From: the human T2T-CHM13v2.0 reference genome, Homo sapiens
Assembly: GCA_009914755.4 (NCBI GenBank)
Contig: CP068257.2
Span: forward strand, 6,688,001-6,752,000
Length of the DNA stretch: 64,000 nucleotides
Direction of reading: 5' to 3'
Shown: positions 29,201 to 54,350 of the stretch, piece by piece
Numbering within the stretch: position 1 is the first letter of the stretch
How the letters are laid out: every line of letters starts with the position of its first letter
Made by a program: the position numbers and the translations under genes
The notes under the pieces: model-generated
The model's input: the letters and a program-made list of their open reading frames with translations, nothing else
What the model was told of the DNA's origin: nothing
Database searches by the model: none

Positions 29201-32200
29201 TGGAATGGAAACTAATGGAATGGAATGGAAACAACCCGAGTGGAATGGAATGGAATGGAATGGAATGGAATGGAATGGAATACAACAAAATGGAAACAAC
29301 CCGAGTGGAATGGCATGGAATGGAAAGGACTTGAATATAATGGAATGGATTGGAATCAACCCGATTAGAAACTAATGGAATTGAATGGAATGGAATGGAA
29401 TAGAATGGAATGGAATGGAATGGCATGGAATCTACCCGAGTGGAATGGAATTGAATGGAATTTAATGGAATGGAATGGAATAGAATGGTATGGAATCAAC
29501 CCGAGTGGAATGGTATAGAATGGAACGTAATGGAACGGAATGGAATGGAATAAAACAGAATGGAATGGAATGGAAACAACCCGAGTGGAATGGAATGGAA
29601 TGGAATGGAGTGGAATGGAATGGAATGGAATGGAGTGGAATGGAATGGAATAGAATGGAATGGAATAGAATGGAATGGAATGAAATGGAATAGAATGAAA
29701 TGGAAAGGAATGGAATGGAAATAACCCGAGTGGAATGGAATGGAATGGAATGGAATGGAATGGAATGGAATGGAATGGAATCAACCCGAGTTAAATGGAA
29801 TGGAATGGAATGGAACGGAATATAATGGAATGGAACGGAATCATCCCTACTGGAATGGAATGGTATGGAATGCAATGGAATGGAGTGGAACAGAACGGAA
29901 TGGAATGGAATGGAATTGATTGAAACCGAGTGGAATTGAATGGAAGGGAATGCATTGGAAAGGAATGGAAAGGATTCAACCCGAGTGGAATGTAATGGAT
30001 TGGAATGGAGTGGAATGGAATGGAATGGAATAGAATGGAATGGAATCAACACAAATGGAATGGAATGGAATGGAATGGAATGGAATAGAATGGAAAGGAA
30101 TGGAATGCAAAGGAATGGAATGGAATGGAATGAAATGGAATAAACCCGAATGGAATGGAATGGAATGGAATGGAATGGAATGGAATGGAATGGAATGGAA
30201 TGGAATGGAGTGGAATGGAATAAACACCAGTTTAATGAAATGGAATGGAATGGAATGGAATGGAATACAACAAAATGGAAACAACCCGAGTGGAATGGCA
30301 TGGAATGAAAAGGATTGAATATAATGGAATGGATTGGAATCAACCCGATTAGAAACTAATGGAATGGAATGGAATGGAATGGAATGGAATGGAATGGAAT
30401 GGAATGGAATGGAATCTAACCTAGTGGAATGGAAAGGAATGGAATTTAAAGAAATGAAATGGAATGGAATGGAACAGAATTGAATGGAATGGAATGGAAT
30501 GGAATCTACCCGAGTGAAATGGAATGGAATGGAATTTAATGGAATGGAATGGTATAGAATGTAATGGAATCAACCCCAGTGGAATGGTATAGAATGTAAT
30601 GTAATGGAATGGAATGGAATAAAATGGAATGGAATGGAAACAACCCGAGTGGAATGGAATGGAATAACCGGAGAGGAATGGAATGGAATGGAGTGGAATG
30701 GAATGGAATAGAATGGAATAGAAAGGAATGGAATAGAATGAAATTGAAAGGAATGGAATGGAAACCACCCGAGTGGAATGGAATGGAATGGAATGGAATG
30801 CAATGGAATCAACCCGAGTGGAATGGAAAGGAATGGAATGGAACGGAATATAATGGAATGGAATGGAAACATCCCGAGTGGAATGGAATGGTATGGAATG
30901 CAATTGAATGGTATGGAACAGAACGGAATGAAATGGAATGCAATAGATTGATTGCGAGTGGAATTGAATGGAATGGAATGGATTGGAATGGAATGGAAAG
31001 GATTGGAGTGGAATGGAATGGAATCAACAAGAATGGAATGGAAAGGAATGGAATGGAATGGAATGGAATGGAATGGAATGGTAAGGAACAGAATGGAAAC
31101 AACCCGAGTGGAATGGAATGGAATGGACTGTAATCCACCCGAGTGGAATGGAATGTAATGGAATTGAACGGAATATAATGGAATTGAATGGAATCATCCC
31201 GAGTCGAATGGAATGGTATCTAATGCAATGGAATGGAATGGAACAGAACGGAATGGAATGGAAAGAATAGATTGAATCCAAGTGGAATTGAATGGAATGA
31301 AATGGATTGGAAAGGAATGGAATGGATTGGAATGGAAAGGAATGGATTCAACACGAGTGGAATGTAATGGATTGGAATGGAGTGGAATGGAATAGAATGG
31401 AATCAACACGAATGGAATGGAACGGAATGGAATGGAATGGAATGGAATGCTATGGAATGAAATGGAAAGGAACGGAATAGAATCAACCCAAGTGTAATGG
31501 AATGGAAGGGAATTGAAGGGAATCAACACGAGTGGAACGGAATGGAAAGGAATGCAATGGAATGGAATGGAATGGAATGGAATGGAATGGAATGGAAGGG
31601 AATGGAATGGAACGGAAAGGAATCAACCCAAGAGGAGTGGAATGGAATAGAATGGAACCAACCCGAGTGGAATGGAATGCTATGGAATTCAATGGAATGG
31701 AGTGGAACAGAACTGAATGATATGAAATGGAATTGATTGAATCCGAGTGGAATTGAACGGAAGGGAACGGATTGGAATGGAATGGAAAGGATTCAACACG
31801 AGTGGAATGTAATGGAATGGAGTGGAGTGGAATGGAATGGTATGGAATGTAATGGAATGGAATGGAATGGAATGAAATGGAATAAACCCGAATGCAATGG
31901 AATGGATTGGAATGGAATGGAATGGAATGCAATGGAATGGAATGGAATGAAATGGAAAGGAGTGCAATGGAATAAACACCAGTGGAACGAAATGGAATGG
32001 AATGAAATGGAATGGAACGGTATGGAATGGAATGGAATGGAATGCAATGGAGTGAAATCAAACCAAGTAGAATGGAACGGAATGGAATGGAATGGAATGG
32101 AATAGAAAGGAATGGAATCAACTGGAATGGAATGAAATGGAATGGCATGGAGTGGAATGGAATGCAGTGCAATGGAATCAACAAGAGTGGAATGCAATGG

Positions 32201-32800
32201 AATGGAATGGAATGGAATGAAATGTAATGGAGTGGAATGGAATGGAATGGAATCAACCCGAGTGGAGTGGAATAAAATGGAATGGAATGGAATGGAATCA
32301 ACCTGAGTGGAACGGAATGGAATGGAATGGAACGGAGTGGAATGGTATCAACCAGAGTGGACTGGAATGGAATGGAATGGAATAGAATGGAACGGAATGG
32401 AATGGAATGGAATGGAATGGAAACTACTGGAATGGAATGGAGACAACCCGAGTGGAATAGAATGCAATGGAATGGAATGGAGTGGAATGGAATGGAATGG
32501 AATGGAATCAACCCGACTGGAATGGAATGGAATGGAAAGGAATGAAAGGAATGCAATGGAATGGAATGGTATGGAATGCAATGGGAAGGAATTGAATGGA
32601 ATGGAACGGAATGGAACGGAACGGAGTGGAATCGAATGGACCCCAATGGAATGGAATGGAATGGAATGGATTGGAATGGAATGGAACCGAATTAACACGA
32701 GTGGAATGGAATGTAATGGAATGGAGCGGAATGGAGTGGAAAGGAATGGAATGGAATGGAATGGAATGGAATGGAATCAACCCGAGTGGAATGGAATGGA
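26230..32800 (+). repeat. HOR-A penultimate copy. A ~6.57 kb block is nearly identical to 33230-39800 at an offset of 7000-7010 bp, with a ~430 bp junction at 32800-33230 between them.
   Basis: Long identical ORF pairs: 27714..28736(-) vs the body of 34724..36124(-); 27766..28089 vs 34776..35099; 28091..28324 vs 35101..35334; 28111..28554 vs 35121..35564; 29160..29375 vs 36170..36385; 30609..31133 vs 37619..38143; 31483..32646(-) vs 38533..39651(-); 31737..32105 vs 38742..39110; 32282..32545 vs 39287..39550. The offset is 7010 early and 7005 late. Confidence 0.85.
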
Positions 32801-33229
32801 ATGGAACGCAATGGAATGGAATGGTATGGAATCAACCCTAGTGGAATGGTATGGAATGGAATGGAACGGAACGGAATGGAATGGAATCAACCCGAATGGA
32901 ATGGAACGGAGTGCAGTGGAATGGTACGGAATGGAATGGAATGGAAAGGAATCAACCCGAAGGGTTTGGAATGGAATGGAATGGAATGGAATGGAATGGA
33001 ATGGAATAACATGCAATCAACTTTGGTGGAATGGTATAGAATGGAATAACATACAATCAACTTTGGTGGAATGGTATGGAATGGAATGGAATGGAATAAA
33101 AGGGCATGGAATGGAATGGAATCAACGCGAATGGAATGGAACGGAATGGAGTGGAATGGTATGGAATGGAATGGAATGGAAAGGAATCAACCTGAAATGT
33201 ATGGAATGGAATGGAATGGAATGGAATGG

Positions 33230-36200
33230 AATGGAATGGAATGGAATGGAATGCAATGGAATCAACTGGAATGGAATGGAATGGAATGGAATGGAACGGA
33301 ATGGAATGGAAACTACTGGAATGGAATGGAAACAACCCGAGTGGAATGGAATGCAATGAATGGAATGGAGTGGAATGGAATGGAATGGAATGGAATCAAC
33401 ACGAGTGTACTGCAACGGAATGAAATGGAATGGAATGGAATGGAATGGAATGGAATGGAATGGAACGGAATGGAACAGAACGGAATTGAATGGAATGGAA
33501 TCAACCCAAGTGGAAAGGAATGGAATGGAATGGAATGGAAGGAATGGAATGGAATGGAATGGAATAGCATGCAATCAACTTTGGTGGAATGGTATGGAAT
33601 GGTATGGTATGGAGTGGAATGGAATGGAATGGTATGGAATGGAATGGAATAAAAGGGCATGGAATGGAATGGAATTAACCCGAGAGGAATGGAATGGAAT
33701 GGAATGGAATGGAATGGAAGGAATGGAAATGAATCAAACCGAGTGGAATGGAATAGAATGGAATGGAATGGAATGGAAACAATGCAATGCAATTGTATCA
33801 ACGGGAATGGAATGCATTGGAATGGAATGGAATGGAATCACCCTGAGTGGATAGGAATGGAATGGAAGGGAATGGAAAGGAATGGAATGGAATGGAAACT
33901 AATGGAATGGAATGGAAACAACCCGAGTGGAATGGAATGGAATGGAATGGAATGGAATGGAATGGAATGGAATGAAATGGAATGGAATGGAATACAACAA
34001 AATGGAAACAACCCGAGTGGAATGGCATGGAATGGAAAGGACTTGAATATAATGGAATGGATTGGAATCAACCCGATTACAAACTAATGGAAAGCAATGG
34101 AATGGAATGGAATGGAATGGAATGGAATTTACCCGAGTGGAATGGAATGTAACGAAATTAAATGGAATGGAATGGAATGGAATGGAATGGAATACTACAA
34201 AATGGCAACAATCCGAGTGGAATGGCATGGAATGGAAACGACCTGAATATAATGGAATGGATTGGAATCAACCCGATTAGAAACTAATGGAATGGAATGG
34301 AATGGAATGGAAACTACCCGAGTGGAATGGAATGTAATGGAATGGAGTGGAATGGAATGGAATGGAATGGAATGGAATGGAATGGAATGGAACAGAATCG
34401 AATCCAATGGAATCAACTGGAATGGAATGGAATGCAATGGAATGGAATGGAATGGAATGGAATGGAATGGGATCAATCCGGGTGGAATGGAATAGAATAT
34501 AATGATGTGGAATGGAATGGAAGGGAGTGGAATGGAGTTGAATGGAATGGAATGGAATGGAATCAACCCGAATGGAATGGAACGGAATGGAATGGAATGG
34601 AATGGAATGGAATGGAATGGAATGGAATGGAGTCCACCCGAGGTGAATGGAATGGAATGGAATGGAACGGAATATAATGGAATGGAACGGAATCATCCCG
34701 AGTGGAATGGAATGGTATGGAATTCAATAGAATGGAATGGAACAGAACGGAATGAAATGGAATGGAATAGATTGAATGCGAGTGGAATTGAATGGAATGG
34801 AACGGATTGGAATGGAATGGAATGGACTGGAGTGGAATGGAATGGAATCAACACGAATGGGATGGAACGGAATGGAATGGAATGGAAAGGAACGGAATGG
34901 AATCAACCCGAGTGGAATGGAATGGAATGGAATGGAATCCACCCGAGTGGAATGGAATCGAATGGAATGCAATGGAATTGAACGGAATATAATGGAATTA
35001 AAAGGAATCATCCCGAGTGGAATGGAATGGAATCTAATGCAATGGTATCTAATGCAATGGAATGGAATGAAACAGAACGGAAAGGAATGGAAAGAATAGA
35101 TTGAATCCAAGTGGAATTGAATGGAATGGAATGGATTGGAAAGGAATGGAATGGATTGGAATGGATTGGAATGGAAAGGAATGTATTCAACCATTGTGGA
35201 ATGTAATGGATTGGAATGGAATGGAATGGAATGGAATGGAATGGAATGGAATGCAATGGAATCAACACGAATGGAATGGAACGGAATGGAATGGAATGGA
35301 ATGGTATGGAATGAAATGGAAAGGAACGGAATAGAATCAACCAAAGTGGAATGGAATGGAATGGAATGGAAGGGAATCAACACGAGTGGAATGGAGTGGA
35401 AAGGAATGCAATGGAATGGAAAGGAATGGAATGGAATGGAAAGGAATGGAATGGAATGGAATGGAATGGAATGGAATGGAATCAACTCGAGTGGAGTAGA
35501 ATGGAATGGAATGGAATCAACCCCAGTGGAATGGAATGGAATCGAATGGAATGGAATGGAATAAAAGGGCATGGAATAGAACGGAATCAACCTGAATGGA
35601 AAGGAACGGAATGGAGTGGAATGGTATGGAATGGAATGGAAACTACTGGAATGGAATGGAAACAACCCGAGTGGAATGGAATGCAATGGAATGGAATGGA
35701 GGGGAATGGATTGGAATGGAATGGAATCAGCACGAGTGGACTGCAACGGAATGAAATGGAATGGAATGGAATGGAATGGAATGGAATGGAACGGAACGGA
35801 ACGGAACGGAATTGAATGGAATGGAATCAACCCAAGGGGAAAGGAATGGAATGGAATGGAATGGAATGGAATGGAATGGAATGGAATGGAAGAGTATGCA
35901 ATCAAATTTGGTGGAATGGTATGGAATGGTATGGAATGGAATGGAATGGAATGGTATGGAATGGAATGGAATAAAAGGGCATGGAATGGAATGAAATCAA
36001 CCCGACAGGAATGGAAAGGAATGGAATGGAATGGAATGGAATGGAATGGAATGGAATGGAAATGAATCAAACCGAGTGGAATGGAACGGAATGGCATGGA
36101 AACAATGCAATGCAATGGTATCAACGGGAATGGAATGCATTGGAATGGAATGGAATGGAATCATCCTGAGTGGATAGGATTGGAATGAAAGGGAATGGAA

Positions 36201-39200
36201 AGGAATGGAATGGAATGGAAACTAATGGAATGGAATGGAAACAACCCGAGTGGAATGGAATGGAATGGAATGGAATGGAATGGAATGGAATACAACAAAA
36301 TGGAAACAACCCGAGTGGAATGGCATGGAATGGAAAGGACTTGAATATAATGGAATGGATTGGAATCAACCCGATTAGAAACTAATGGAATTGAATGGAA
36401 TGGAATGGAATAGAATGGAATGGAATGGAATGGCATGGAATCTACCCGAGTGGAATGGAATTGAATGGAATTTAATGGAATGGAATGGAATAGAATGGTA
36501 TGGAATCAACCCGAGTGGAATGGTATAGAATGGAACGTAATGGAACGGAATGGAATGGAATAAAACAGAATGGAATGGAATGGAAACAACCCGAGTGGGA
36601 TGGAATGGAATGGAATGGAGTGGAATGGAATGGAATGGAATGGAGTGGAATGGAATGGAATAGAATGGAATGGAATAGAATGGAATGGAATGAAATGGAA
36701 TAGAATGAAATGGAAAGGAATGGAATGGAAATAACCCGAGTGGAATGGAATGGAATGGAATGGAATGGAATGGAATGGAATGGAATGGAATGGAATCAAC
36801 CCAAGTTAAATGGAATGGAATGGAATGGAACGGAATATAATGGAATGGAACGGAATCATCCCTACTGGAATGGAATGGTATGGAATGCAATGGAATGGAG
36901 TGGAACAGAACGGAATGGAATGGAATGGAATTGATTGAAACCGAGTGGAATTGAATGGAAGGGAATGCATTGGAAAGGAATGGAAAGGATTCAACCCGAG
37001 TGGAATGTAATGGATTGGAATGGAGTGGAATGGAATGGAATGGAATAGAATGGAATGGAATCAACACAAATGGAATGGAATGGAATGTAATGGAATGGAA
37101 TAGAATGGAAAGGAATGGAATGCAAAGGAATGGAATGGAATGGAATGAAATGGAATAAACCCGAATGGAATGGAATGGAATGGAATGGAATGGAATGGAA
37201 TGGAATGGAATGGAATGGAGTGGAATGGAATAAACACCAGTTTAATGAAATGGAATGGAATGGAATGGAATGGAATGGAATGGAATACAACAAAATGGAA
37301 ACAACCCGAGTGGAATGGCATGGAATGAAAAGGATTGAATATAATGGAATGGATTGGAATCAACCCGATTAGAAACTAATGGAATGGAATGGAATGGAAT
37401 GGAATGGAATGGAATGGAATGGAATCTAACCTAGTGGAATGGAAAGGAATGGAATTTAAAGAAATGAAATGGAATGGAATGGAACAGAATTGAATGGAAT
37501 GGAATGGAATGGAATCTACCCGAGTGAAATGGAATGGAATGGAATTTAATGGAATGGAATGGTATAGAATGTAATGGAATCAACCCCAGTGGAATGGTAT
37601 AGAATGTAATGTAATGGAATGGAATGGAATAAAATGGAATGGAATGGAAACAACCCGAGTGGAATGGAATGGAATAACCGGAGAGGAATGGAATGGAATG
37701 GAGTGGAATGGAATGGAATAGAATGGAATAGAAAGGAATGGAATAGAATGAAATTGAAAAGAATGGAATGGAAACCACCCGAGTGGCATGGAATGGAATG
37801 GAATGGAATGCAATGGAATCAACCCGAGTGGAATGGAAAGGAATGGAATGGAACGGAATATAATGGAATGGAATGGAAACATCCCGAGTGGAATGGAATG
37901 GTATGGAATGCAATTGAATGGTATGGAACAGAACGGAATGAAATGGAATGCAATAGATTGATTGCGAGTGGAATTGAATGGAATGGAATGGATTGGAATG
38001 GAATGGAAAGGATTGGAGTGGAATGGAATGGAATCAACAAGAATGGAATGGAAAGGAATGGAAAGGAATGGAATGGAATGGAATGGAATGGTAAGGAACA
38101 GAATGGAAACAACCCGAGTGGAATGGAATGGAATGGACTGTAATCCACCCGAGTGGAATGGAATGTAATGGAATTGAACGGAATATAATGGAATTGAATG
38201 GAATCATCCCGAGTCGAATGGAATGGTATCTAATGCAATGGAATGGAATGGAACAGAACGGAATGGAATGGAAAGAATAGATTGAATCCAAGTGGAATTG
38301 AATGGAATGAAATGGATTGGAAAGGAATGGAATGGATTGGAATGGAAAGGAATGGATTCAACACGAGTGGAATGTAATGGATTGGAATGGAGTGGAATGG
38401 AATAGAATGGAATCAACACGAATGGAATGGAACGGAATGGAATGGAATGGAATGGAATGCTATGGAATGAAATGGAAAGGAACGGAATAGAATCAACCCA
38501 AGTGTAATGGAATGGAAGGGAATTGAAGGGAATCAACACGAGTGGAACGGAATGGAAAGGAATGCAATGGAATGGAATGGAATGGAATGGAATGGAATGG
38601 AAGGGAATGGAATGGAACGGAAAGGAATCAACCCGAGAGGAGTGGAATGGAATAGAATGGAACCAACCCGAGTGGAATGGAATGCTATGGAATTCAATGG
38701 AATGGAGTGGAACAGAACTGAATGATATGAAATGGAATTGATTGAATCCGAGTGGAATTGAACGGAAGGGAACGGATTGGAATGGAATGGAAAGGATTCA
38801 ACACGAGTGGAATGTAATGGAATGGAGTGGAGTGGAATGGAATGGTATGGAATGTAATGGAATGGAATGGAATGGAATGAAATGGAATAAACCCGAATGC
38901 AATGGAATGGATTGGAATGGAATGGAATGGAATGCAATGGAATGGAATGGAATGAAATGGAAAGGAGTGCAATGGAATAAACACCAGTGGAACGAAATGG
39001 AATGGAATGAAATGGAATGGAACGGTATGGAATGGAATGGAATGGAATGCAATGGAGTGAAATCAAACCAAGTAGAATGGAACGGAATGGAATGGAATGG
39101 AATGGAATAGAAAGGAATGGAATCAACTGGAATGGAATGAAATGGAATGGCATGGAGTGGAATGGAATGCAGTGCAATGGAATCAACAAGAGTGGAATGC

Positions 39201-39800
39201 AATGGAATGGAATGGAATGGAATGAAATGTAATGGAGTGGAATGGAATGGAATGGAATCAACCCGAGTGGAGTGGAATAAAATGGAATGGAATGGAATGG
39301 AATCAACCTGAGTGGAACGGAATGGAATGGAATGGAACGGAGTGGAATGGTATCAACCAGAGTGGACTGGAATGGAATGGAATGGAATAGAATGGAACGG
39401 AATGGAATGGAATGGAATGGAATGGAAACTACTGGAATGGAATGGAGACAACCCGAGTGGAATAGAATGCAATGGAATGGAATGGAGTGGAATGGAATGG
39501 AATGGAATGGAATCAACCCGACTGGAATGGAATGGAATGGAAAGGAATGAAAGGAATGCAATGGAATGGAATGGTATGGAATGCAATGGGAAGGAATTGA
39601 ATGGAATGGAACGGAATGGAACGGAACGGAGTGGAATCGAATGGACCCCAATGGAATGGAATGGAATGGAATGGATTGGAATGGAATGGAACCGAATTAA
39701 CACGAGTGGAATGGAATGTAATGGAATGGAGCGGAATGGAGTGGAAAGGAATGGAATGGAATGGAATGGAATGGAATGGAATAACATGCAATCAATCAAC
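33230..39800 (+). repeat. HOR-A last copy, truncated at ~39.8 kb where the HOR-B family begins.
   Basis: Same evidence as the 26230-32800 entry. At 39781, ATAACATGCAATCAATCAACTTTGGTGCAATGGTATGTAATGG corresponds to 33001, after which the sequence no longer follows HOR-A. Confidence 0.85.
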
Positions 39801-39974
39801 TTTGGTGCAATGGTATGTAATGGAATGGAATGGAATGGAATGGAATGGAATGGAATGGAATGGAATAAAACGGCATGGAATGAAACAGAATCAACGTGAA
39901 TGGAGTGAAACGGAATGGATTGTAATTGTATGGAATGGAATGGAATGGGAAGGAATCAACAAGAATGGAATGGA

Positions 39975-42900
39975 ATGGAATGGAATGGAATGGAACGGAA
40001 TGGAAGCAACCGGAGTGGAATGAAATGGAATGGAATTGAAAGGAATGGAATGGAATGGAATGGAATGGAATGGAATGGAACGGACCGGAACCGAATGGAA
40101 TTGAATGGAATGGAATCAACCCAAGTGGAAAGGAATGGAATGGAATGGAATGGAATGGAATGGAATGGAATGGAATGGAATGGAATAGCATGCAATCAAC
40201 TTTGGTGGAATGGTATGGAATGGAATGGAATGGAATGGAATGGAATGGAATGGAATGGAATAAAAGGGCATGGCATGGAATGGAACCATTCCGAGGGGAA
40301 TGGTATGGAATGGAATGGAATGGATTGTAATGGAATGGAATAGAAATGAATCAAACCGTGTGGAATTTAATGTAATATAATGTAATGGAAAGGAATGGGA
40401 ACAATGCAATGCAATGGTATCAACTGGAATGGAATGCATTGGAATGGAATGGAATGGAATGGAATCACCCTGAGTGGAAAGGAATAGAATGGAATGGAAA
40501 GGAATGGAATGGAATCAAAACTAATGGAACGGAATGGAAACAACCCGAGTGGAATGGAATGCAATGGAATGGAATGGAATGGAATGCAATGGAATGGAAT
40601 GGAATGGAATGCAGTGGAATGGAATGGAATGGAATGGAATGGAATGGAATGGAATGGAATGGAATACAACAAAATGGAAACAACCCGAGTGGAATGGCAT
40701 GGAATGGAAAGCACTTGAATATAATGGAATGGATTGGAATCAACCCGATTAGAAAATAATGGAATGGAATGGAATGGAATGGAATGGAATGGAATGGAAT
40801 GGAATCTAACCAAGTGGAATGGAAAGGAATGGAATTTAATGGAATGAAATGGAATGGAATGGAACGGAATTGAATATAATGGAATGGAATGGAATCTACC
40901 CGAGTGGAATGGAATGGAATGGAATTTAATGGAATGGAATGGAATAGAATGTAATGGAATCAACCCGAGTGGAATGGTATAGAATGTAATGGAATGCAAT
41001 GGAATGAAATAAAATGGAATGGAATGGAATGGCATGGAAACAACCCGAGTGGAATGGAATGGAATAACCGGAGAGGAATGCAATGGAATGGAGTGGAATG
41101 GAATGGAATAGAATGGAATGGAATGGAATGGAATGGAATGGAATAGAATGAAATTGAAAGTAATGGAATGGAAAACACCCGAGTGGAATGGAATGGAATG
41201 GAATGGAATTTAATGGAATGGAATGGAATGGAATCAACCCGAGTGGAATGGAAAGGAATGGAATGGATCGGAATATAATGGAATGGAATGGAATCAACCC
41301 GAGAGGAACGGAATGAAATGGAATGGAATGGAATGGAATGGAATGGAATGGAATGGAATGGAAATCAGTCAAACCGAGTGGAATGGAATGGAATGGAATG
41401 GAATGGAATGAAATGGAAACAGTGCAAAGCAATGCTATCAAAGGGAATGGAATGCATTGGAATGGAATGGAATGGAATCACCCTGAGTAGAAAGGAATGG
41501 AATGGAATGGAATGGAAAGGATGGAATGGAATGGAAACTAATGGAACGGAATGGAAACAACCCGAGTGGAAGGGAATGTAATGGAATGCAATGGAATGGA
41601 ATGGAATGGAATACAACAAAATGGAAACAACCCGAGTGGAATGGCATGGAATGGAAAGGACTTGAATATAATGAAATGGATTGGAATCAACCCGATTAGA
41701 AACTAATGGAATGGAATGGAATGGAATGGAATGGAATGGAATGGAATGGAATGGAATGGAATCTACACAAGTGGAATGGAATGTAATGGAATTAAATGGA
41801 ATGGAATAGAATGGAATGGAATGGAACGGAGTGGAATGGAATGGAATGGAACGGAATCTACCCGAGTGGAATGGAATGGAATGGGATTTAATGGAATGGA
41901 ATGGAATAGAATGGTATGGAATCAACCCGAGTGGAATGGTAAAGAATGCAAAGTAATGTAAAGTAATGGAATGGAATAAAATGGAATGGAATGGAATGGA
42001 AACAACCCGAGTGGAGTGGACTGGAATGGAATGGAATGGAATGGAATAACCGGAGAGGAATTGAATAGAATGCAGTGTAATGGAATGGAATACAACGGAA
42101 TGGAATGGAATAGAATGAAATGGAAAGGAATGGAATAGAAACAACCCGAGTGGAATGGAATGGAATGGAATCCACCCGAGTGGAATGGAATGCAATGGAA
42201 TTGAACGGAATATAATGGAATTGAAGGGAATCATCCCGAGTGGAATGGAATAGTATTTAATGCAATGGAATGGAAAGGAACAGAACGGAATGGAATGGAA
42301 AGAATAGATTGAATCCAAGTGGATTTGAATGGAATGAAATTGATTGGAAAGGAATGGAATGGATTCTAATGGAAAGGAGTGGATTCAACCCGAGGGAATG
42401 TAATGGATTGGAATGGAGTGGAATGGAATGGAATGTAATCAACACGAATGGAATGGAACGGAATGGAATGGAATGGAATGGAATGCTATGGAATGAAATA
42501 GAAAGGAACGGAATAGAATCAACCCAAATGGAATGGAATGGAATGGAAGGGAATCAACACGTGTGGAATGGAATGGAAAGGAATGCAAAGGAATGGAATG
42601 GAATGGAATGCAATGGAATGGAATGGAATGGAATGGAATGGAATCAACCCGAGTGGAGGGGAATGGAATGGAATGGAATCAACAAGAGTGGAGTGGAATA
42701 AAATGGAATGGAATGGGATGGAATCAACCTGAGTGGAACGGAATGGAATGGAATGGAACGGAATGGAATGGTATCAACCAGAGTGGACTGGAATGGAATG
42801 GAATGGAATGGAATGGAATGGAATGGAATGGAATGGAACAGAATCAACCTGAGTCAAATAGAATGGAATGGAATGGAATGGAATGCAATGGAATGGAAAC

Positions 42901-45530
42901 TACTGGAATGTCATGGAAACAACCCGAGTGGAGTGGAATGGAATGGAATGGAATGGAATGGAATGGATTGGAATGGAATGTAAAGGAATGGAATGGAATC
43001 AACCCGACTGGAGTGGAATGGAAAGGAAAGGAATGAATGGAATGGAATGGAATGGATTGGAATGGAATGGAATGGAATAAACCAGAATGGAATGGAATGA
43101 AATGGAATGGAATGGAGTGGAATGGAATAAACACCAGTGGAATGAAATGGAATGGAAGGAAATGGAATGGAATGGACTGGAATGGAATGGAATGGAATGA
43201 AATCAACCCGAATAGAATGGAACGGAAAGGAATGTAATGGAATAGAGTGGAATGGAATGGAATGGAATGAAATCAACCCGAATAGAATGGAACGGAAAGG
43301 AATGTAATGGAATAGAGTGGAATGGAATGGAATGGAATGGAATGGAATGGAATGGAATGGAATGGAATGGAATGGATTCAACCCGAGTGGAATGGAATGG
43401 AATGGAATGCAATGGAATGGAATGGTATGGAATCAACCCTAGTGGAATGGTATGGAATGGAATGGAACGGAACGGAATGGAATTTAATCAACCCGAATGG
43501 AATGGAACGGAATGGAGTGGAATGGTACGGAATGGAATGAAATGGAAAGGAATCAACACGAAGGGTATGGATTGTAATGCAATGGAATGGAATGGAATGG
43601 AATCAACCCGACTGGAATGCAATGGAATAAAATGGAATGGAATGGAACGGAACGGAACGGAACGGAACGGAATTGAAAGGAATGGAATCAACCCGAGTGA
43701 AAAGGAATGGAATGGAAAGGAATGGAATGGAATGGAATGGAATGGAATGGAATGGAGTGGAATGGAATGGAATGGAATAACATGCAATCAACTTTGGTGG
43801 CATGGTATGGAATGGAATAACATGCAATCAAATTTGGTGGAATGGTATTTAAAGAAATGGAAAAGAATGGAATGGAATGGAATAAAAGGGCATTGAAAGG
43901 AAAGGAATCAAACCGAATGGAATGGAACGGAATGGAGTGGAATGGTATGGAATGGAATGGAATGGAAAGAAATCAACCCGATGTGTATGGAATGGAATGG
44001 AATGGAATGGAACGGAATGGAATGGAATCAACACGAGTGGAATGCAATGGAATGAAATGGAATGGAATGGAACGGAACAGAACAGAATTGAATGAAATGG
44101 AATCAACCCAAGTGGAAAGGAATGGAATGGAATGGAATGCAATGGAATGCAATTGAATGGAATGGAATAACATGCAATCAACTTTGGTGGAATGGTATGG
44201 AATGGAATGGAATATAATGGAATGGAATGGAACAAAAGGGCATGGAATGGAACGGAATCAAACCGAATGGAATAGAGCGGAAGGGAGTGGAATGGTATGG
44301 AATGGAATGGAATGGAAAGGAATGAACCTGAAGGGCATAGAATGGAATGGAATGGAATGGAAGGGAATGGAAAGGAATGGAATCAACTCGAGTGGAATGT
44401 AATGGAATGGAATGGAACGGAACGGAACGGAAAGGAATTGAATGGAATGGAATCAACCCGAGTGGAATGGAATGGAATGGAATGCAATGGAATGGAATGG
44501 AATGCAATGGAATGGAATGGAATGGAATGGAATGGAATGGAATGGAATGGAATGGAATGGAATAACATGCAATCAACTTTGGTGGAAAGCTATAGAATGG
44601 AATGGAAGGGAATGGAATGGAATGGAATGGAATGGAATGGAAAGGAATGGAATGGAATGGAATAAAAGGGCATGGAATGGAACAGAATCAACCCGAATGG
44701 AAAGGAACGGAAAGGAGTGGAATGGTATGGAATGGAATGGAATAGAAAGGAATCAACCCGAAGGGTATGGAATGGAATGGAATGGAATGGAATGGAATGG
44801 AATGGAATCAACCCGAGTGGAATGCAATGGAATGAAATGGAAGGGAATGGAATGGAATGGAACGGAACGGAACGGAATGGAACGGAACGGAATTGAATGG
44901 AATGGAATCAATAAAAGTGGAAAGGAATGGAATGGAATGGAATGGAATGGAATGGAATGGAATGGAATGCAATGGAATGGAATGGAATGGAATGGAATGG
45001 AATGGAATGGAATGGAATGCAATGGAATGGAATGGAATGGAATGGAATGGAATGGAATGGAATAGCATGCAATCAACTTTGGTGGAATGGCATGGAATGG
45101 AATGGAATGGAATGGAATAAAAGGGCATGGAATGGAATGGAATCAACCCGAGAGGAATGGAATGAAATGGAATGGAATGGAATGGAATGGAAATCAGTCA
45201 AACCGAGTGGAATGTAATGTAATGGAATGGAATGGAAACACTGCAAAGCAATGCTATCAAAGGGAATGGAATGCATTGGAATGGAATGGAATGGAATCAC
45301 CCTGAGTAGAAAGGAATGGAATGGAATGGAATGGAACGGATGGAATGGAATGGAAACTAATGGAATGGAATGGAAACAACCCGAGTGGAATGGAATGCAA
45401 TGGAATGGAATGGAATGGAATGGAATGGAATGGAATACAACAAAATGGAAACAACCTGAGTGGAATGGCATGGAATGGAAAGGACTTGAATATAATGGAA
45501 TGGATCAGAATCAACCGGATTAGAAACTAA
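39975..45530 (+). repeat. HOR family B, copy 1 (~5.55 kb unit).
   Basis: The sequence from 39961 (..GGAACGGAATGGAAGCAACCGGAGTGGAATGAAATGGAATGGAATTGAAAGG..) recurs at 45540. ORF pairs are identical at offsets of 5555, 5550, 5470, 5465 and 5505: 40367..41083(-) vs 45922..46638(-); 40385..40759 vs 46009..46314; 40926..41441(-) vs 46481..46996(-); 41223 vs 46778; 42270..42701 vs 47820..48251; 42533 vs 48083; 43488..43787(-) vs 48958..49257(-); 43842..44156 vs 49312..49626; 44297..44665 vs 49767..50135; 45087..45305 vs 50592..50810; 45227 vs 50732. Confidence 0.88.
43201..43340 (+). repeat. HOR-B copy 1 only: a ~70 bp tandem micro-duplication (AATCAACCCGAATAGAATGGAACGGAAAGGAATGTAATGGAATAGAGTGGAATGGAATGGAATGGAATGA x2) plus two extra GGAAT units, giving a net +80 bp relative to copy 2.
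   Basis: The motif starts at 43201 and again at 43271. The corresponding site in copy 2 (48741-48850) has a single copy followed by 8 rather than 10 AATGG units. The inter-copy offset drops from 5550 to 5470 exactly across this interval. Confidence 0.8.
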
Positions 45531-48500
45531 TGGAATGGAATGGAATGGAATGGAATGGAACGGAATGGAAGCAACCGGAGTGGAATGAAATGGAATGGAA
45601 TTGAAAGGAATGGAATGGAATGGAATGGAATGGAATGGAATGGAATGGAACGGACCGGAACCGAATGGAATTGAATGGAATGGAATCAACCCAAGTGGAA
45701 AGGAATGGAATGGAATGGAATGGAATGGAATGGAATGGAATGGAATGGAATAGCATGCAATCAACTTTGGTGGAATGGTATGGAATGGAATGGAATGGAA
45801 TGGAATGGAATGGAATAAAAGGGCATGGCATGGAATGGAACCATTCCGAGGGGAATGGTATGGAATGGAATGGAATGGATTGTAATGGAATGGAATAGAA
45901 ATGAATCAAACCGTGTGGAATTTAATGTAATATAATGTAATGGAAAGGAATGGGAACAATGCAATGCAATGGTATCAACTGGAATGGAATGCATTGTAAT
46001 GGAATGGAATGGAATGGAATCACCCTGAGTGGAAAGGAATAGAATGGAATGGAAAGGAATGGAATGGAATCAAAACTAATGGAACGGAATGGAAACAACC
46101 CGAGTGGAATGGAATGCAATGGAATGGAATGGAATGGAATGCAATGGAATGGAATGGAATGGAATGCAGTGGAATGGAATGGAATGGAATGGAATGGAAT
46201 GGAATGGAATGGAATGGAATACAACAAAATGGAAACAACCCGAGTGGAATGGCATGGAATGGAAAGCACTTGAATATAATGGAATGGATTGGAATCAACC
46301 CGATTAGAAAATAATGGAATGGAATGGAATGGAATGGAATGGAATGGAATGGAATGGAATCTAACCAAGTGGAATGGAAAGGAATGGAATTTAATGGAAT
46401 GAAATGGAATGGAATGGAACGGAATTGAATATAATGGAATGGAATGGAATCTACCCGAGTGGAATGGAATGGAATGGAATTTAATGGAATGGAATGGAAT
46501 AGAATGTAATGGAATCAACCCGAGTGGAATGGTATAGAATGTAATGGAATGCAATGGAATGAAATAAAATGGAATGGAATGGAATGGCATGGAAACAACC
46601 CGAGTGGAATGGAATGGAATAACCGGAGAGGAATGCAATGGAATGGAGTGGAATGGAATGGAATAGAATGGAATGGAATGGAATGGAATGGAATGGAATA
46701 GAATGAAATTGAAAGTAATGGAATGGAAAACACCCGAGTGGAATGGAATGGAATGGAATGGAATTTAATGGAATGGAATGGAATGGAATCAACCCGAGTG
46801 GAATGGAAAGGAATGGAATGGATCGGAATATAATGGAATGGAATGGAATCAACCCGAGAGGAACGGAATGAAATGGAATGGAATGGAATGGAATGGAATG
46901 GAATGGAATGGAATGGAAATCAGTCAAACCGAGTGGAATGGAATGGAATGGAATGGAATGGAATGAAATGGAAACAGTGCAAAGCAATGCTATCAAAGGG
47001 AATGGAATGCATTGGAATGGAATGGAATGGAATCACCCTGAGTAGAAAGGAATGGAATGGAATGGAATGGAAAGGATGGAATGGAATGGAAACTAATGGA
47101 ACGGAATGGAAACAACCCGAGTGGAAGGGAATGTAATGGAATGCAATGGAATGGAATGGAATGGAATACAACAAAATGGAAACAACCCGAGTGGAATGGC
47201 ATGGAATGGAAAGGACTTGAATATAATGAAATGGATTGGAATCAACCCGATTAGAAACTAATGGAATGGAATGGAATGGAATGGAATGGAATGGAATGGA
47301 ATGGAATGGAATCTACACAAGTGGAATGGAATGTAATGGAATTAAATGGAATGGAATAGAATGGAATGGAATGGAACGGAGTGGAATGGAATGGAATGGA
47401 ACGGAATCTACCCGAGTGGAATGGAATGGAATGGGATTTAATGGAATGGAATGGAATAGAATGGTATGGAATCAACCCGAGTGGAATGGTAAAGAATGCA
47501 AAGTAATGTAAAGTAATGGAATGGAATAAAATGGAATGGAATGGAATGGAAACAACCCGAGTGGAGTGGACTGGAATGGAATGGAATGGAATGGAATAAC
47601 CGGAGAGGAATTGAATAGAATGCAGTGTAATGGAATGGAATACAACGGAATGGAATGGAATAGAATGAAATGGAAAGGAATGGAATAGAAACAACCCGAG
47701 TGGAATGGAATGGAATGGAATCCACCCGAGTGGAATGGAATGCAATGGAATTGAACGGAATATAATGGAATTGAAGGGAATCATCCCGAGTGGAATGGAA
47801 TAGTATTTAATGCAATGGAATGGAAAGGAACAGAACGGAATGGAATGGAAAGAATAGATTGAATCCAAGTGGATTTGAATGGAATGAAATTGATTGGAAA
47901 GGAATGGAATGGATTCTAATGGAAAGGAGTGGATTCAACCCGAGGGAATGTAATGGATTGGAATGGAGTGGAATGGAATGGAATGTAATCAACACGAATG
48001 GAATGGAACGGAATGGAATGGAATGGAATGGAATGCTATGGAATGAAATAGAAAGGAACGGAATAGAATCAACCCAAATGGAATGGAATGGAATGGAAGG
48101 GAATCAACACGTGTGGAATGGAATGGAAAGGAATGCAAAGGAATGGAATGGAATGGAATGCAATGGAATGGAATGGAATGGAATGGAATGGAATCAACCC
48201 GAGTGGAGGGGAATGGAATGGAATGGAATCAACAAGAGTGGAGTGGAATAAAATGGAATGGAATGGGATGGAATCAACCTGAGTGGAACGGAATGGAATG
48301 GAATGGAACGGAATGGAATGGTATCAACCAGAGTGGACTGGAATGGAATGGAATGGAATGGAATGGAATGGAATGGAACAGAATCAACCTGAGTCAAATA
48401 GAATGGAATGGAATGGAATGGAATGCAATGGAATGGAAACTACTGGAATGTCATGGAAACAACCCGAGTGGAGTGGAATGGAATGGAATGGAATGGAATG

Positions 48501-51040
48501 GAATGGAATGGAATGGATTGGAATGGAATGTAAAGGAATGGAATGGAATCAACCCGACTGGAATGGAATGGAAAGGAAAGGAATGAATGGAATGGAATGG
48601 AATGGATTGGAATGGAATGGAATGGAATAAACCAGAATGGAATGGAATGAAATGGAATGGAATGGAGTGGAATGGAATAAACACCAGTGGAATGAAATGG
48701 AATGGAAGGAAATGGAATGGAATGGAATGGAATGGAATGGAATGGAATGAAATCAACCCGAATAGAATGGAACGGAAAGGAATGTAATGGAATAGAGTGG
48801 AATGGAATGGAATGGAATGGAATGGAATGGAATGGAATGGAATGGATTCAACCCGAGTGGAATGGAATGGAATGGAATGCAATGGAATGGAATGGTATGG
48901 AATCAACCCTAGTGGAATGGTATGGAATGGAATGGAACGGAACGGAATGGAATTTAATCAACCCGAATGGAATGGAACGGAATGGAGTGGAATGGTACGG
49001 AATGGAATGAAATGGAAAGGAATCAACACGAAGGGTATGGATTGTAATGCAATGGAATGGAATGGAATGGAATCAACCCGACTGGAATGCAATGGAATAA
49101 AATGGAATGGAATGGAACGGAACGGAACGGAACGGAACGGAATTGAAAGGAATGGAATCAACCCGAGTGAAAAGGAATGGAATGGAAAGGAATGGAATGG
49201 AATGGAATGGAATGGAATGGAATGGAGTGGAATGGAATGGAATGGAATAACATGCAATCAACTTTGGTGGCATGGTATGGAATGGAATAACATGCAATCA
49301 AATTTGGTGGAATGGTATTTAAAGAAATGGAAAAGAATGGAATGGAATGGAATAAAAGGGCATTGAAAGGAAAGGAATCAAACCGAATGGAATGGAACGG
49401 AATGGAGTGGAATGGTATGGAATGGAATGGAATGGAAAGAAATCAACCCGATGTGTATGGAATGGAATGGAATGGAATGGAACGGAATGGAATGGAATCA
49501 ACACGAGTGGAATGCAATGGAATGAAATGGAATGGAATGGAACGGAACAGAACAGAATTGAATGAAATGGAATCAACCCAAGTGGAAAGGAATGGAATGG
49601 AATGGAATGCAATGGAATGCAATTGAATGGAATGGAATAACATGCAATCAACTTTGGTGGAATGGTATGGAATGGAATGGAATATAATGGAATGGAATGG
49701 AACAAAAGGGCATGGAATGGAACGGAATCAAACCGAATGGAATAGAGCGGAAGGGAGTGGAATGGTATGGAATGGAATGGAATGGAAAGGAATGAACCTG
49801 AAGGGCATGGAATGGAATGGAATGGAATGGAAGGGAATGGAAAGGAATGGAATCAACTCGAGTGGAATGTAATGGAATGGAATGGAACGGAACGGAACGG
49901 AAAGGAATTGAATGGAATGGAATCAACCCGAGTGGAATGGAATGGAATGGAATGCAATGGAATGGAATGGAATGCAATGGAATGGAATGGAATGGAATGG
50001 AATGGAATGGAATGGAATGGAATGGAATGGAATAACATGCAATCAACTTTGGTGGAAAGCTATAGAATGGAATGGAAGGGAATGGAATGGAATGGAATGG
50101 AATGGAATGGAAAGGAATGGAATGGAATGGAATAAAAGGGCATGGAATGGAACAGAATCAACCCGAATGGAAAGGAACGGAAAGGAGTGGAATGGTATGG
50201 AATGGAATGGAATAGAAAGGAATCAACCCGAAGGGTATGGAATGGAATGGAATGGAATGGAATGGAATGGAATCAACCCGAGTGGAATGCAATGGAATGA
50301 AATGGAAGGGAATGGAATGGAATGGAACGGAACGGAACGGAATGGAACGGAACGGAATTGAATGGAATGGAATCAATAAAAGTGGAAAGGAATGGAATGG
50401 AATGGAATGGAATGGAATGGAATGGAATGGAATGCAATGGAATGGAATGGAATGGAATGGAATGGAATGGAATGCAATGGAATGGAATGGAATGGAATGG
50501 AATGGAATGGAATGGAATGGAATGGAATGCAATGGAATGGAATGGAATGGAATGGAATGGAATGGAATAGCATGCAATCAACTTTGGTGGAATGGCATGG
50601 AATGGAATGGAATGGAATGGAATAAAAGGGCATGGAATGGAATGGAATCAACCCGAGAGGAATGGAATGAAATGGAATGGAATGGAATGGAATGGAAATC
50701 AGTCAAACCGAGTGGAATGTAATGTAATGGAATGGAATGGAAACACTGCAAAGCAATGCTATCAAAGGGAATGGAATGCATTGGAATGGAATGGAATGGA
50801 ATCACCCTGAGTAGAAAGGAATGGAATGGAATGGAATGGAACGGATGGAATGGAATGGAAACTAATGGAATGGAATGGAAACAACCCGAGTGGAATGGAA
50901 TGCAATGGAATGGAATGGAATGGAATGGAATGGAATGGAATGGAATACAACAAAATGGAAACAACCTGAGTGGAATGGCATGGAATGGAAAGGACTTGAA
51001 TATAATGGAATGGATCAGAATCAACCGGATTAGAAACTAA
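45530..51040 (+). repeat. HOR family B, copy 2 (~5.51 kb unit). It ends at ~51040, where the sequence jumps to a diverged interior portion of the unit.
   Basis: See copy 1. ORF 45620..45898 equals the C-terminal part of 39915..40343, offset 5555. After 51040 the sequence resembles the unit interior near 41716 (peptide IY(T/K)SGMECNGIKWNGIEWNG) instead of starting a phase-preserving third copy. Confidence 0.85.
50380..50570 (+). repeat. Near-pure (GGAAT)n tract (~38 units, with occasional GCAAT variants). It is ~40 bp (8 units) longer than its counterpart at 44897-45060 in HOR-B copy 1.
   Basis: Read directly. The inter-copy offset changes from 5465 to 5505 across this tract. Confidence 0.75.
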
Positions 51041-53569: not shown

Positions 53570-54350
53570 TGAAATGGAATGGAATGGAATGGAATGGAAT
53601 GCAATGGAATGGAATGGAATGGAATGGAATAATATGCAATCAACTTTGGTGGAATGGTATAGAATGGAATGCAATGGAATGGAATGGAATGGAATGGAAT
53701 CAAACCGAGTGGAATGCAATGGAATGGAATAGAATGGAATGGAATGGAATGGAATCAACCCGAAGGAAATGGAATGGAATGGAAAGGAATGAATGCAATG
53801 GAATGGAATGGGATGGTATGGAATGCAATGGGATGGAATTGAATGGAATGGAACGGAATGGAACGGAATGGAATGGACCTCAATGGAATGGAAGGGAATG
53901 GAATGGATTGGAATGGGATGGAACGGAATTAACCCGAGTGGAATGGAATGGAATGGAATGGAACGGAATGGAATGGAATGGAATGGACCCCAATGGAATG
54001 GAATGGAATGGAATGGAATGGAATGGAATGGAATGGAATCAACCCGAGTGGAATGTAATGGAATGGAATGCAATGAAATGGAACGGTATGGAATCAACCC
54101 TAGTGGAATGGTGTGGAATGGAATGGAACGGAACGGAATGGAATGGAATGGAATCAACCTGAATGGAATGGAATGGAATGCAGTGGAAAGGTACGTAATG
54201 GAATGGATTGGAAAGGAATCAACTCGAAAGGTATGGAATGGAATGCAATGGAATGGAACGGAATGGAATGGAATCAACCTGAGTGGAATGCAATGGAATA
54301 AAATGGAATGGAATGGAACGGAACGGAACGGAATGGAACGGAATTGAAAG
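53570..54350 (+). repeat. Diverged-module block duplicated at 59400-60050 (offset ~5.82 kb).
   Basis: ORF 53793..54347 vs 59617..59877 have near-identical N-terminal ~85 aa. ORF 53569..54162 vs the 59132..60052 interior both read METTR/MESTRRKWNGMERNECNGMEWDGMECNGMELNGMERNGTEWNGPQWNG...DGTELTRVEWNG. Confidence 0.7.

What the first reader, a model, noticed from the sequence alone, without database searches (positions are those of the whole stretch)
39750..40000. Abrupt boundary between two HOR families (~7.0 kb HOR-A and ~5.5 kb HOR-B) inside the array
Up to ~39.8 kb the array follows the 7.0 kb HOR-A, whose last copy is truncated. From ~39.98 kb it follows a different 5.5 kb unit with two near-perfect copies. 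A switch of HOR structure with no change of orientation is the signature of an unequal-crossover or array-expansion boundary between HSat3 sub-arrays. Such junctions are informative for dating and ordering array-expansion events.
Basis: seen in the sequence. Interest (0 to 1): 0.55.

Follow-up and report, generated by a model that had tools for sequence, protein, structure and literature searches.

The report
Repeat-length switch inside HSat3-type satellite
Inside a 64 kb stretch of (GGAAT)n satellite DNA, a very young 7.0 kb duplicated block ends 181 bp before a very young 5.55 kb tandem duplication begins; the switch is real, but it is the ordinary, already described way such satellite arrays grow locally.

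Summary
Positions 26229-32777 and 33229-39782 are 99.9% identical at a 7.0 kb offset. Positions 39964-45560 and 45529-51070 are 99.9% identical at a 5.5 kb offset. Neither period crosses the 181 bp between them.

- **Copy number.** Each "HOR family" is a single two-copy event with about 0.11% divergence, not a long homogeneous sub-array.
- **Relatedness.** The two units are related. The B unit shares collinear modules with the A unit at 90-97% identity.
- **Register.** The array continues in register across the boundary. The 181 bp piece plus the B head aligns with the A1 tail plus the A2 head at 92%. The last A copy is therefore not cut out of register.
- **Origin of B1/B2.** It is a clean tandem duplication made by exchange inside a 30 bp (AATGG)6 tract.
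- **Origin of A1/A2.** The block is 6.55 kb, shorter than its 7.0 kb period. This fits conversion or double exchange better than simple duplication.
- **Context.** The window holds at least four period regimes: about 4.5, 7.25-7.6, 7.0 and 5.5-5.8 kb.

The sequence is HSat3-type: pentamer base, 181 CAACCCGA(G/A)T motifs, one orientation. Subfamily and species are unresolved. Locally varying multi-kb periods ("nested tandem repeats") in HSat2/3 are already published. Interest is low.

The parts
9800..26228 (+). Older 7.25-7.6 kb units of the same array (about two and a quarter units). They share a ~5.8 kb core with each other and ~4 kb of it with A1/A2.
   Evidence: Lag 7.5/7.25 kb alignments show 0.4-3% substitutions per 250 columns over 9800-15690 vs 17400-23198 and over 17300-23036 vs 24500-30273. 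The linkers 15.7-17.4 kb and 23.2-24.5 kb are not homologous to each other.
26229..32777 (+). A1, first copy of the young 6.55 kb block. It is a chimera: 26.25-30.27 kb is the older-unit core, and 30.27-32.78 kb is a B-like module absent from the older units.
   Evidence: edges and identity; no counterpart of 30.3-32.0 kb in 11-26 kb; best other matches are in B at 90-96%.
32778..33228 (+). Spacer S between A1 and A2, not part of the near-identical pair. Its first ~265 bp have no counterpart after A2.
   Evidence: identity drops to background; best matches are B 43402-43603 at 94.6% and 32717-32899 vs 43301 at 96%; sub-repeat motif at 33014 and 33054.
33229..39782 (+). A2, second copy of the young block. 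It differs from A1 by 7 substitutions and 11 pentamer-multiple indels.
39750..39779 (+). Perfect (AATGG)6 tract in which the A1/A2 identity ends. First difference: 32778 C vs 39783 A.
39783..39963 (+). Junction piece J (181 bp). It is an old, diverged member of the CAATCAACTTTGGTG sub-repeat family and belongs to neither young pair.
   Evidence: best other match 88.5% at 54717-54894; collinear with the S tail 33040-33250; its 33-mer is unique in the window.
39964..39993 (+). Perfect (AATGG)6 tract, left breakpoint of the B tandem duplication. Homologous tracts lie at 45529-45558 (new joint) and 51039-51078 (right edge).
   Evidence: Three-way comparison: the joint has the upstream sequence of the right edge and the downstream sequence of the left edge.
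39964..45528 (+). B1, first copy of the 5.55 kb tandem duplication: a head homologous to the A head, then a module collinear with A 30.3-33.3 kb, then a 1.3-1.5 kb array of ~390-500 bp sub-repeats (43.8-45.1 kb).
   Evidence: identity; module content.
45529..51070 (+). B2, second copy of the tandem duplication.
51071..57000 (+). Diverged B-like unit of ~5.6 kb, 88-92% identical to B1/B2 and collinear with them apart from a ~1.2 kb insert of older-unit-like modules.
   Evidence: 51201~40775, 52001~42181, 54001~43340, 54401~43756, 56801~40797; 5.5 kb lag at 85-90%.

Best explanation
The window is one continuous, single-orientation HSat3-type (GGAAT)n array. Its multi-kb nested tandem repeat units are homologous to one another but differ in structure, with lengths of about 4.5, 7.25-7.6, 7.0, 6.6 and 5.55-5.8 kb.

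The 'boundary' at 39.78-39.96 kb is where the edges of two independent, equally young local homogenisation events (about 0.11% divergence each) come within 181 bp of each other.

1. B1/B2 is a one-step tandem duplication of one 5.55 kb unit. It arose by unequal exchange, or replication slippage, between two (AATGG)6-8 tracts one unit apart. This step is shown.
2. A1/A2 is a 6.55 kb tract of identity laid over two neighbouring ~7 kb units. It most likely arose by gene conversion or double unequal exchange. Both of its ends stop in (AATGG)n tracts exactly where the flanks become structurally different: the spacer S against the older-unit tail on the left, and a ~265 bp indel on the right. This step is inferred.

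The sequence to the right of 39782 is the old, unconverted tail of that unit. The next unit, of B type, follows it in register. Nothing suggests any function beyond satellite turnover.
For: - **Young pairs and edges:**
- **B is a clean tandem duplication:** identical length 5.6 kb equals the offset of 5.5-5.57 kb. In the three-way junction comparison the joint at 45529-45558 combines the upstream flank of the right edge with the downstream flank of the left edge, across a shared 30 bp (AATGG)6.
- **A block shorter than its period:** 6.55 vs 7.0 kb, and spacer S is not duplicated.
- **Register is kept across the boundary:** 39770-40430 aligns collinearly with 33030-33800 at 92%. Head modules are A1=A2 100%, A vs B 92%, A vs older unit 95.8%.
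- **J is old:** its best other copy is 88.5% identical.
- **A and B share collinear modules at 90-97%**.
- **Equal divergence of the two pairs:** 7/6511 vs 6-7/5449 substitutions.
- **Slippage-prone substrate:** all 21 multi-base indels are multiples of 5 bp.
- **Further period changes in the same window**, at about 12, 26-30 and 51 kb.
- **Published statement** that HSat2,3 periodicity varies within arrays and that NTRs expand hyper-locally (10.1101/2021.07.12.452052).
Against: - Conversion was not distinguished from a 7.0 kb tandem duplication followed by a small deletion or replacement, nor from an in-register unequal crossover that deleted whole units. All three leave the same boundary.
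- The 181 bp proximity of two independent edges has a post-hoc chance of about 1% (2 x ~181 bp over ~39.4 kb of free space; my estimate). The events may therefore not be independent.
- Perfect (GGAAT) runs of 6 or more units cover 14% of the window, and edges cannot be placed more precisely than the shared tract. Breakpoints falling in such tracts are therefore only weak evidence.
- Assembly correctness could not be checked.
- Species, chromosome and subfamily are unknown: none of the 14 published subfamily marker 24-mers has an exact hit.
Confidence: 0.62

Rival explanations
1. One reading: two distinct HSat3 HOR sub-arrays, 7.0 kb and 5.5 kb, abut at an unequal-crossover junction that truncated the last 7.0 kb copy and may have deleted whole units. 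Under this reading the right side is a different sub-array brought next to the left one.
For: - Sharp loss of 99.9% identity at 39782, inside an (AATGG)6 tract.
- A2 lacks the S segment that follows A1.
- Unit length is at least 7.0 kb everywhere to the left and 5.5-5.8 kb everywhere to the right.
- An in-register unequal crossover between tails of different units would leave exactly this pattern.
Against: - Only two near-identical copies exist on each side.
- A and B share collinear 90-97% modules, and B-like sequence (30.3-33.2 kb) already lies inside the A unit to the left of the boundary.
- Register is kept across the junction at 92%, so nothing marks J and B as foreign.
- The B duplication is a separate event with its own breakpoints 181 bp away.
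Confidence: 0.22
2. One complex event, or a recurrent breakage hotspot at the unit head or tail, produced both young pairs. Examples are replication-based template switching or repeated repair of breaks near 39.8-40.0 kb. Under this reading the proximity and equal age of the two edges are causally linked.
For: - The edges are 181 bp apart, with a post-hoc chance of about 1% (inference from the block sizes).
- Divergence is the same, 0.11% vs 0.11-0.13%.
- The left edge of the A block (33229) and the left edge of the B block (39964, which aligns to 33270) lie about 41 bp apart in homologous unit coordinates.
Against: - There are only two events, so the statistics are post hoc.
- Substitution counts of 6-7 are too small to show that the ages are equal.
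- Perfect pentamer tracts occur at about 3.5 per kb, so recurrent use of similar sites is expected without a hotspot.
- No junction insertion or inversion typical of template switching is present.
Confidence: 0.1
3. Assembly artefact: a mis-join, or a falsely duplicated or collapsed segment, in a low-complexity satellite. The joins would have been placed in perfect pentamer tracts by the assembler.
For: All four block edges lie in perfect (AATGG)n tracts, which is where overlaps are ambiguous. The junction 33-mer has no exact match in the metagenome contig collection, although that collection is not expected to cover this locus.
Against: - The copies differ by genuine scattered substitutions and pentamer-count changes.
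- In-register homology continues across the junction.
- B-like modules occur on both sides, which is not expected for a chimeric join of unrelated arrays.
- Read support was not testable here.
Confidence: 0.06

Closest known systems
Human satellite 3 (HSat3, classical satellite III) with nested tandem repeats (NTRs), as described for T2T-CHM13 (Altemose et al., bioRxiv 10.1101/2021.07.12.452052; subfamilies in PMC4022460)
   Same: - (CATTC)n/(GGAAT)n base: 53% of bases lie in exact GGAAT, and TRF reports period 5.
- The interspersed 10-mer CAACCCGA(G/A)T occurs 181 times.
- The repeat units are multi-kb and have no discrete monomers.
[quoted passage not shown]
   Different: None of the 14 published most-common subfamily-specific 24-mers has an exact hit. 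The HSat3B3 marker has 10 hits at one mismatch and the HSat3B1 marker has 3. Subfamily, chromosome and even species (human or another hominoid) are therefore not established. I could not check whether 7.0 kb and 5.55 kb periods are listed for any annotated array.
Alpha-satellite higher-order repeats and their HOR-haplotype / layered-expansion boundaries
   Same: Local, recent expansions produce blocks of near-identical multi-kb units flanked by older, more diverged relatives. Orientation is preserved and unequal exchange is the accepted driver.
   Different: There is no 171 bp-type monomer and no fixed monomer order, so the units are not HORs in the strict sense. There are only two copies per young block rather than hundreds, and no link to kinetochore position can be drawn.
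Chromosome-specific HSat2/3 long repeat units (1.77 kb HSat2 unit on chr1, 3.6 kb DYZ1 HSat3 unit on Y; cited in PMC4022460)
   Same: Kilobase-scale repeat units built from diverged pentamers and amplified in tandem.
   Different: Those arrays are homogeneous over megabases with one dominant period. This window shows at least four periods within 64 kb and only pairwise near-identity.

Membership tests
HSat3 (classical satellite III) | Built from the pentamer (GGAAT)n/(CATTC)n with period 5 | tested here: met
   GGAAT occurs 6791 times on + and covers 53% of bases. TRF gives a single array of period 5. All 21 multi-base indels between the young copies are multiples of 5 bp.
HSat3 (classical satellite III) | Interspersed 10-mer CAACCCGA(A/G)T, the reverse complement of A(T/C)TCGGGTTG. 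This is the classical definition, recalled from my own knowledge of Prosser et al. 1986 and not read here. | tested here: met
   CAACCCGAGT occurs 161 times and CAACCCGAAT 20 times, all on the + strand, at 3-5 per kb throughout the window.
HSat3 (classical satellite III) | Not HSat2: no decamer/trimer nested structure (10.64898/2026.01.27.702063) and no HSat2 marker 24-mers (PMC4022460 Table 1) | tested here: met
   The three HSat2 markers have 0 hits even at one mismatch, and the HSat2-type string CATCATCGAATGGAATCGAATGG has 0 hits. The period is 5 only.
HSat3 subfamily (A1-A6, B1-B5; Altemose 2014) | Presence of the subfamily's most common specific 24-mer | tested here: inconclusive
   There are 0 exact hits for all 11 HSat3 markers. 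At one mismatch the counts are B3 10, B1 3, A2 2 and B5 1. One marker per subfamily is too thin to assign or exclude a subfamily.
HSat3 (human pericentromeric array) | Location in a human (or ape) pericentromeric array | not testable with these tools
   No human or ape genome is available among the collections. Ten short metagenome contigs carry the sub-repeat motif. One of them (L006) is 98% identical to 58.1-59.6 kb, but its host is not stated.
Nested tandem repeat (NTR) as defined by Altemose et al. | Multi-kb repeat unit made of diverged simple repeat, not composed of a discrete number of similar-length monomers | tested here: met
   Units of 7.0-7.6 and 5.5-5.8 kb recur. No intermediate monomer period was detected. 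The sub-repeats marked by CAATCAACTTTGGTG are irregular, at about 300-760 bp.
Higher-order repeat (alpha-satellite sense) | Unit composed of a fixed number of discrete monomers of similar length | tested here: not met
   TRF finds only the pentamer. Module lengths are irregular, and the units differ by kb-scale gains and losses.
Simple tandem duplication by unequal exchange (B1/B2) | Identical length equals the offset, and the new joint combines the right-edge upstream flank with the left-edge downstream flank across shared homology | tested here: met
   Identity spans 39964-45560 vs 45529-51070 with an offset of 5505-5570. (AATGG)6 is shared at all three sites.
Simple tandem duplication by unequal exchange (A1/A2) | Identical length equals the offset | tested here: not met
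   The identity block is 6.55 kb and the offset is 7.005-7.010 kb. The 451 bp spacer 32778-33228 is duplicated on neither side.
Gene-conversion / double-exchange tract (A1/A2) | Identity tract shorter than the period, with flanks that are homologous at the older divergence or structurally heterologous | tested here: inconclusive
   The right flank is homologous in register at ~92% after a ~265 bp indel. The left flanks (25.8-26.2 kb vs 32.8-33.2 kb) are not homologous to each other. This is compatible with conversion but does not exclude duplication followed by deletion.

The most novel reading that the evidence does not exclude
The head/tail region of the NTR unit (around 33.2 kb, homologous to 39.9 kb) may be a recurrent exchange or breakage hotspot that seeds local satellite expansions. 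Two equally young events have edges 181 bp apart in the sequence. Their left edges lie about 41 bp apart in homologous unit coordinates. If that holds across the whole array and across haplotypes, it would give a sequence-defined initiation site for HSat3 turnover.
Probability: 0.1. Interest if true: 0.45.

Novelty: already known. Interest (0 to 1): 0.15.

Why it matters
Taken alone, it matters little. It is one instance of the local, pairwise duplication and homogenisation that shapes HSat2/3 arrays, and the T2T centromere papers describe that process in general terms.

Its practical value is as a worked example. Base-level junctions can be read in such arrays: a 30 bp (AATGG)6 exchange site, equal divergence of 0.11% in both pairs, and pentamer-slippage indels that outnumber substitutions by about 1.5 to 1. 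The two young copies (A2 and B2) are good candidates for copy-number polymorphisms, which could be used to date and order events if population haplotypes are compared.

It also shows that the apparent 'families' in a high-stringency dot-plot are edges of recent events on a continuous array, not separate sub-arrays.

Tried and rejected
- **Whole-window BLAST:** self-BLAST of the full window timed out. I replaced it with rare-k-mer chaining and tile BLAST.
- **The repeat finder on 25-53 kb:** the output was swamped by the pentamer background, with about 2000 'copies' at 70-80%. It was useful only for reporting zero inverted repeats.
- **TRF:** its longest period is 500 bp and it returned only the pentamer, so it tests neither the kb periods nor the ~400 bp sub-repeats.
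- **Direct BLAST of B against A:** it under-reported the homology because HSPs merged into long low-identity alignments. The 200 bp tiles recovered the collinear 90-97% matches.
- **Public collections:** the junction-specific 33-mer gave 0 hits in metagenome contigs. The family motif 31-mer gave 0 hits in bacterial/archaeal genomes and 10 short metagenome contigs. Most of these are 80-90% paralogues, and one (L006) is 98% identical to 58.1-59.6 kb. None covers the junction.
- **Subfamily assignment:** the 14 published marker 24-mers gave no exact hits.
- **Chance:** rejected, because the pairs are 99.9% identical over 5.5-6.5 kb against a background of 82-88%.
- **Inversion or TE insertion at the boundary:** rejected, because orientation is constant and no non-satellite stretch exists anywhere in the window.
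Full report
**What the window is.** All 64 kb are one (GGAAT)n-type satellite in a single orientation.
- GC is 0.39-0.42 and GC skew about +0.65 throughout.
- GGAAT occurs 6791 times on the + strand and 3 times on the - strand, and 53% of bases lie in exact GGAAT.
- TRF sees only period 5.
- The classical satellite-III 10-mer CAACCCGA(G/A)T occurs 181 times, always on +.
- HSat2 markers are absent even at one mismatch.
- No non-satellite insert exists anywhere.

This fits HSat3. None of the 14 subfamily marker 24-mers of Altemose 2014 (PMC4022460, Table 1) occurs exactly. The HSat3B3 marker has 10 hits at one mismatch. Subfamily, chromosome and species therefore stay open.

**Check of the observation.** A rare-k-mer dot-plot gives the strongest offsets at 7010/7005 bp and 5550/5555/5470 bp. 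By position, ~7.0 kb dominates 26-33 kb and ~5.5 kb dominates 40-46 kb. Global alignments and direct reading fix the blocks:

| Pair | Copy 1 | Copy 2 | Substitutions | Indels |
|---|---|---|---|---|
| A1/A2 | 26229-32777 | 33229-39782 | 7 in 6511 aligned bases | 11, all multiples of 5 bp |
| B1/B2 | 39964-45560 | 45529-51070 | 6-7 in 5449 aligned bases | 10, all multiples of 5 bp |

Unrelated tiles match at 82-88%, so chance is excluded. There is no 5.5 kb-lag partner at 90% or better inside 26-39.6 kb. There is no 7 kb-lag downstream partner at 93% or better for tiles starting past 40 kb.

**Anatomy of the B pair.** The identical length (5.6 kb) equals the offset (5.5-5.57 kb), so B1 ends where B2 begins. 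The three relevant sites read as follows:
- Left edge: ...CAACAAG(AATGG)6AACGGAATGGAAGCAACC...
- Joint: ...GAAACT(AATGG)6AACGGAATGGAAGCAACC...
- Right edge: ...GAAACT(AATGG)8AATAGAATGG...

The joint has the upstream flank of the right edge and the downstream flank of the left edge, and the shared part is a 30 bp perfect pentamer tract. This is the direct signature of one tandem duplication by unequal exchange or slippage. That step is shown.

**Anatomy of the A pair.** The identical block is 6.55 kb but the offset is 7.005-7.010 kb. A 451 bp spacer S (32778-33228) lies between the copies and is duplicated on neither side, so this is not a simple tandem duplication.

The A unit is itself a chimera:
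- 26.25-30.27 kb matches the core of the older 7.25-7.6 kb units to the left, at about 1-2% substitution divergence.
- 30.27-33.2 kb has no counterpart in those older units. Its best matches are in the B unit.

**A and B are related, and register is kept.** Tiles of 200 bp show that B 40.7-44.0 kb is collinear with A 30.3-33.3 kb at 90-97% identity:

| B tile start | A match start | Identity |
|---|---|---|
| 40701 | 37335 | 96% |
| 42301 | 31264 | 96% |
| 42701 | 32275 | 97% |
| 43301 | 32717 | 96% |
| 43801 | 33079 | 93% |

B lacks A 27.1-30.3 kb. It carries instead a 1.3-1.5 kb array of 390-500 bp sub-repeats marked by CAATCAACTTTGGTG. That motif occurs 35 times in the window where 0.03 are expected.

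The 181 bp junction piece J (39783-39963) has no close copy; its best match is 88.5% at 54717-54894. J plus the B1 head (39770-40430) aligns collinearly with the S tail plus the A2 head (33030-33800) at 92% excluding gaps, after a ~265 bp deletion relative to S. Head modules are 100% identical between A1 and A2, 92% between A and B, and 95.8% between A and an older unit.

The array of homologous units therefore runs on in register across the 'boundary'. What ends at 39782 is only the 99.9% identity.

**Context.** To the right of 51.07 kb a further unit of ~5.6 kb is collinear with B at 88-92%. To the left, units of 7.25-7.6 kb occupy about 10-26 kb, and the head motif is spaced 4.4-4.5 kb apart in 3-12 kb. 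The window thus contains at least four period regimes and several structural transitions.

**Mechanism.** The best-supported reading is that two independent, equally young local events lie on a continuous array of nested tandem repeats.
- B1/B2 arose by one unequal exchange in (AATGG)6. This is shown.
- A1/A2 is most simply a 6.55 kb conversion or double-exchange tract between two neighbouring ~7 kb units. Both of its ends stop in pentamer tracts exactly where the flanks become structurally different. This is inferred.

All three leave the same junction.

The 181 bp proximity of the two edges has a post-hoc chance of about 1% (my estimate from the block sizes). The two left edges are about 41 bp apart in homologous unit coordinates. 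A shared hotspot or a coupled event is therefore possible but rests on only two events. An assembly artefact cannot be excluded without reads. The scattered true substitutions, the in-register homology and the B-like modules on both sides all argue against it.

**Rough age.** At 0.11% divergence, and taking a generic mammalian rate of about 0.5e-9 per site per year, the pairs would be on the order of a million years old. The rate is an assumption of mine, not measured here. Satellite mutation rates, conversion and assembly error make this only an order-of-magnitude figure.

**Comparison with what is known.** Altemose et al. (bioRxiv 10.1101/2021.07.12.452052) state that HSat2,3 can be composed of multi-kb units, which they name nested tandem repeats to distinguish them from HORs. 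[quoted passage not shown] The present locus is an instance of exactly that. It is not a HOR in the alpha-satellite sense, because no discrete monomer exists.

**Verdict.** The phenomenon is already known and the interest is low.

Noticed in passing
window 11201-11703 vs 25898-26400: These segments are 99.8-100% identical at a two-unit lag of 14.7 kb, while the intermediate copy at 18745-19242 is only ~96% identical. This suggests either long-range conversion that skips a unit or a former two-unit super-repeat.
   Followed up: partly
window 12573-14160 vs 15691-17264: A 1.6 kb internal duplication lies at a 3.1 kb offset (94-98% identity) inside one older unit. It accounts for much of that unit's extra length, 7.5 kb against 7.25 kb.
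   Followed up: partly
window 53305-54144 vs 59118-59963: An isolated ~0.85 kb island of 97.8-97.9% identity lies at a 5.8 kb offset, in a region where the units otherwise match at only 85-90%. It may be a short conversion tract.
   Followed up: no
window 26229-39782 and 39964-51070: Between the young copies, all 21 multi-base indels are multiples of 5 bp (5-80 bp). They outnumber substitutions by about 1.5 to 1 (21 vs 13-14), so pentamer slippage is the fastest mutational process here.
   Followed up: yes
window 43785-45084, 49255-50589, 54431-56590 (also 33014, 33054, 39793, 40193): A sub-repeat family marked by CAATCAACTTTGGTG has 35 sites within two mismatches, against 0.03 expected. It forms irregular 300-760 bp tandem clusters in the tails of B-type units and single copies at every unit head.
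   Followed up: partly
window 2953, 7351, 11866 (head motif) and 5457-7946 vs 9977-12411: The left end of the window has a shorter period of 4.4-4.5 kb. This is a further period regime, not mentioned in the finding.
   Followed up: no
window 30270-33228: The 3' 3 kb of the '7.0 kb HOR-A' unit is absent from the older 7.25-7.6 kb units and is B-like at 90-97%. The A unit is therefore a hybrid of the left-type core and a right-type module.
   Followed up: yes
L006 (VNIW01012413.1, 1114 bp) vs window 58101-59556: A short metagenome contig matches this part of the window at 98% in pieces, and nine other contigs with the same motif match at 80-90%. They presumably come from host DNA in metagenomes. 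None covers the junction, and the host is not stated.
   Followed up: partly
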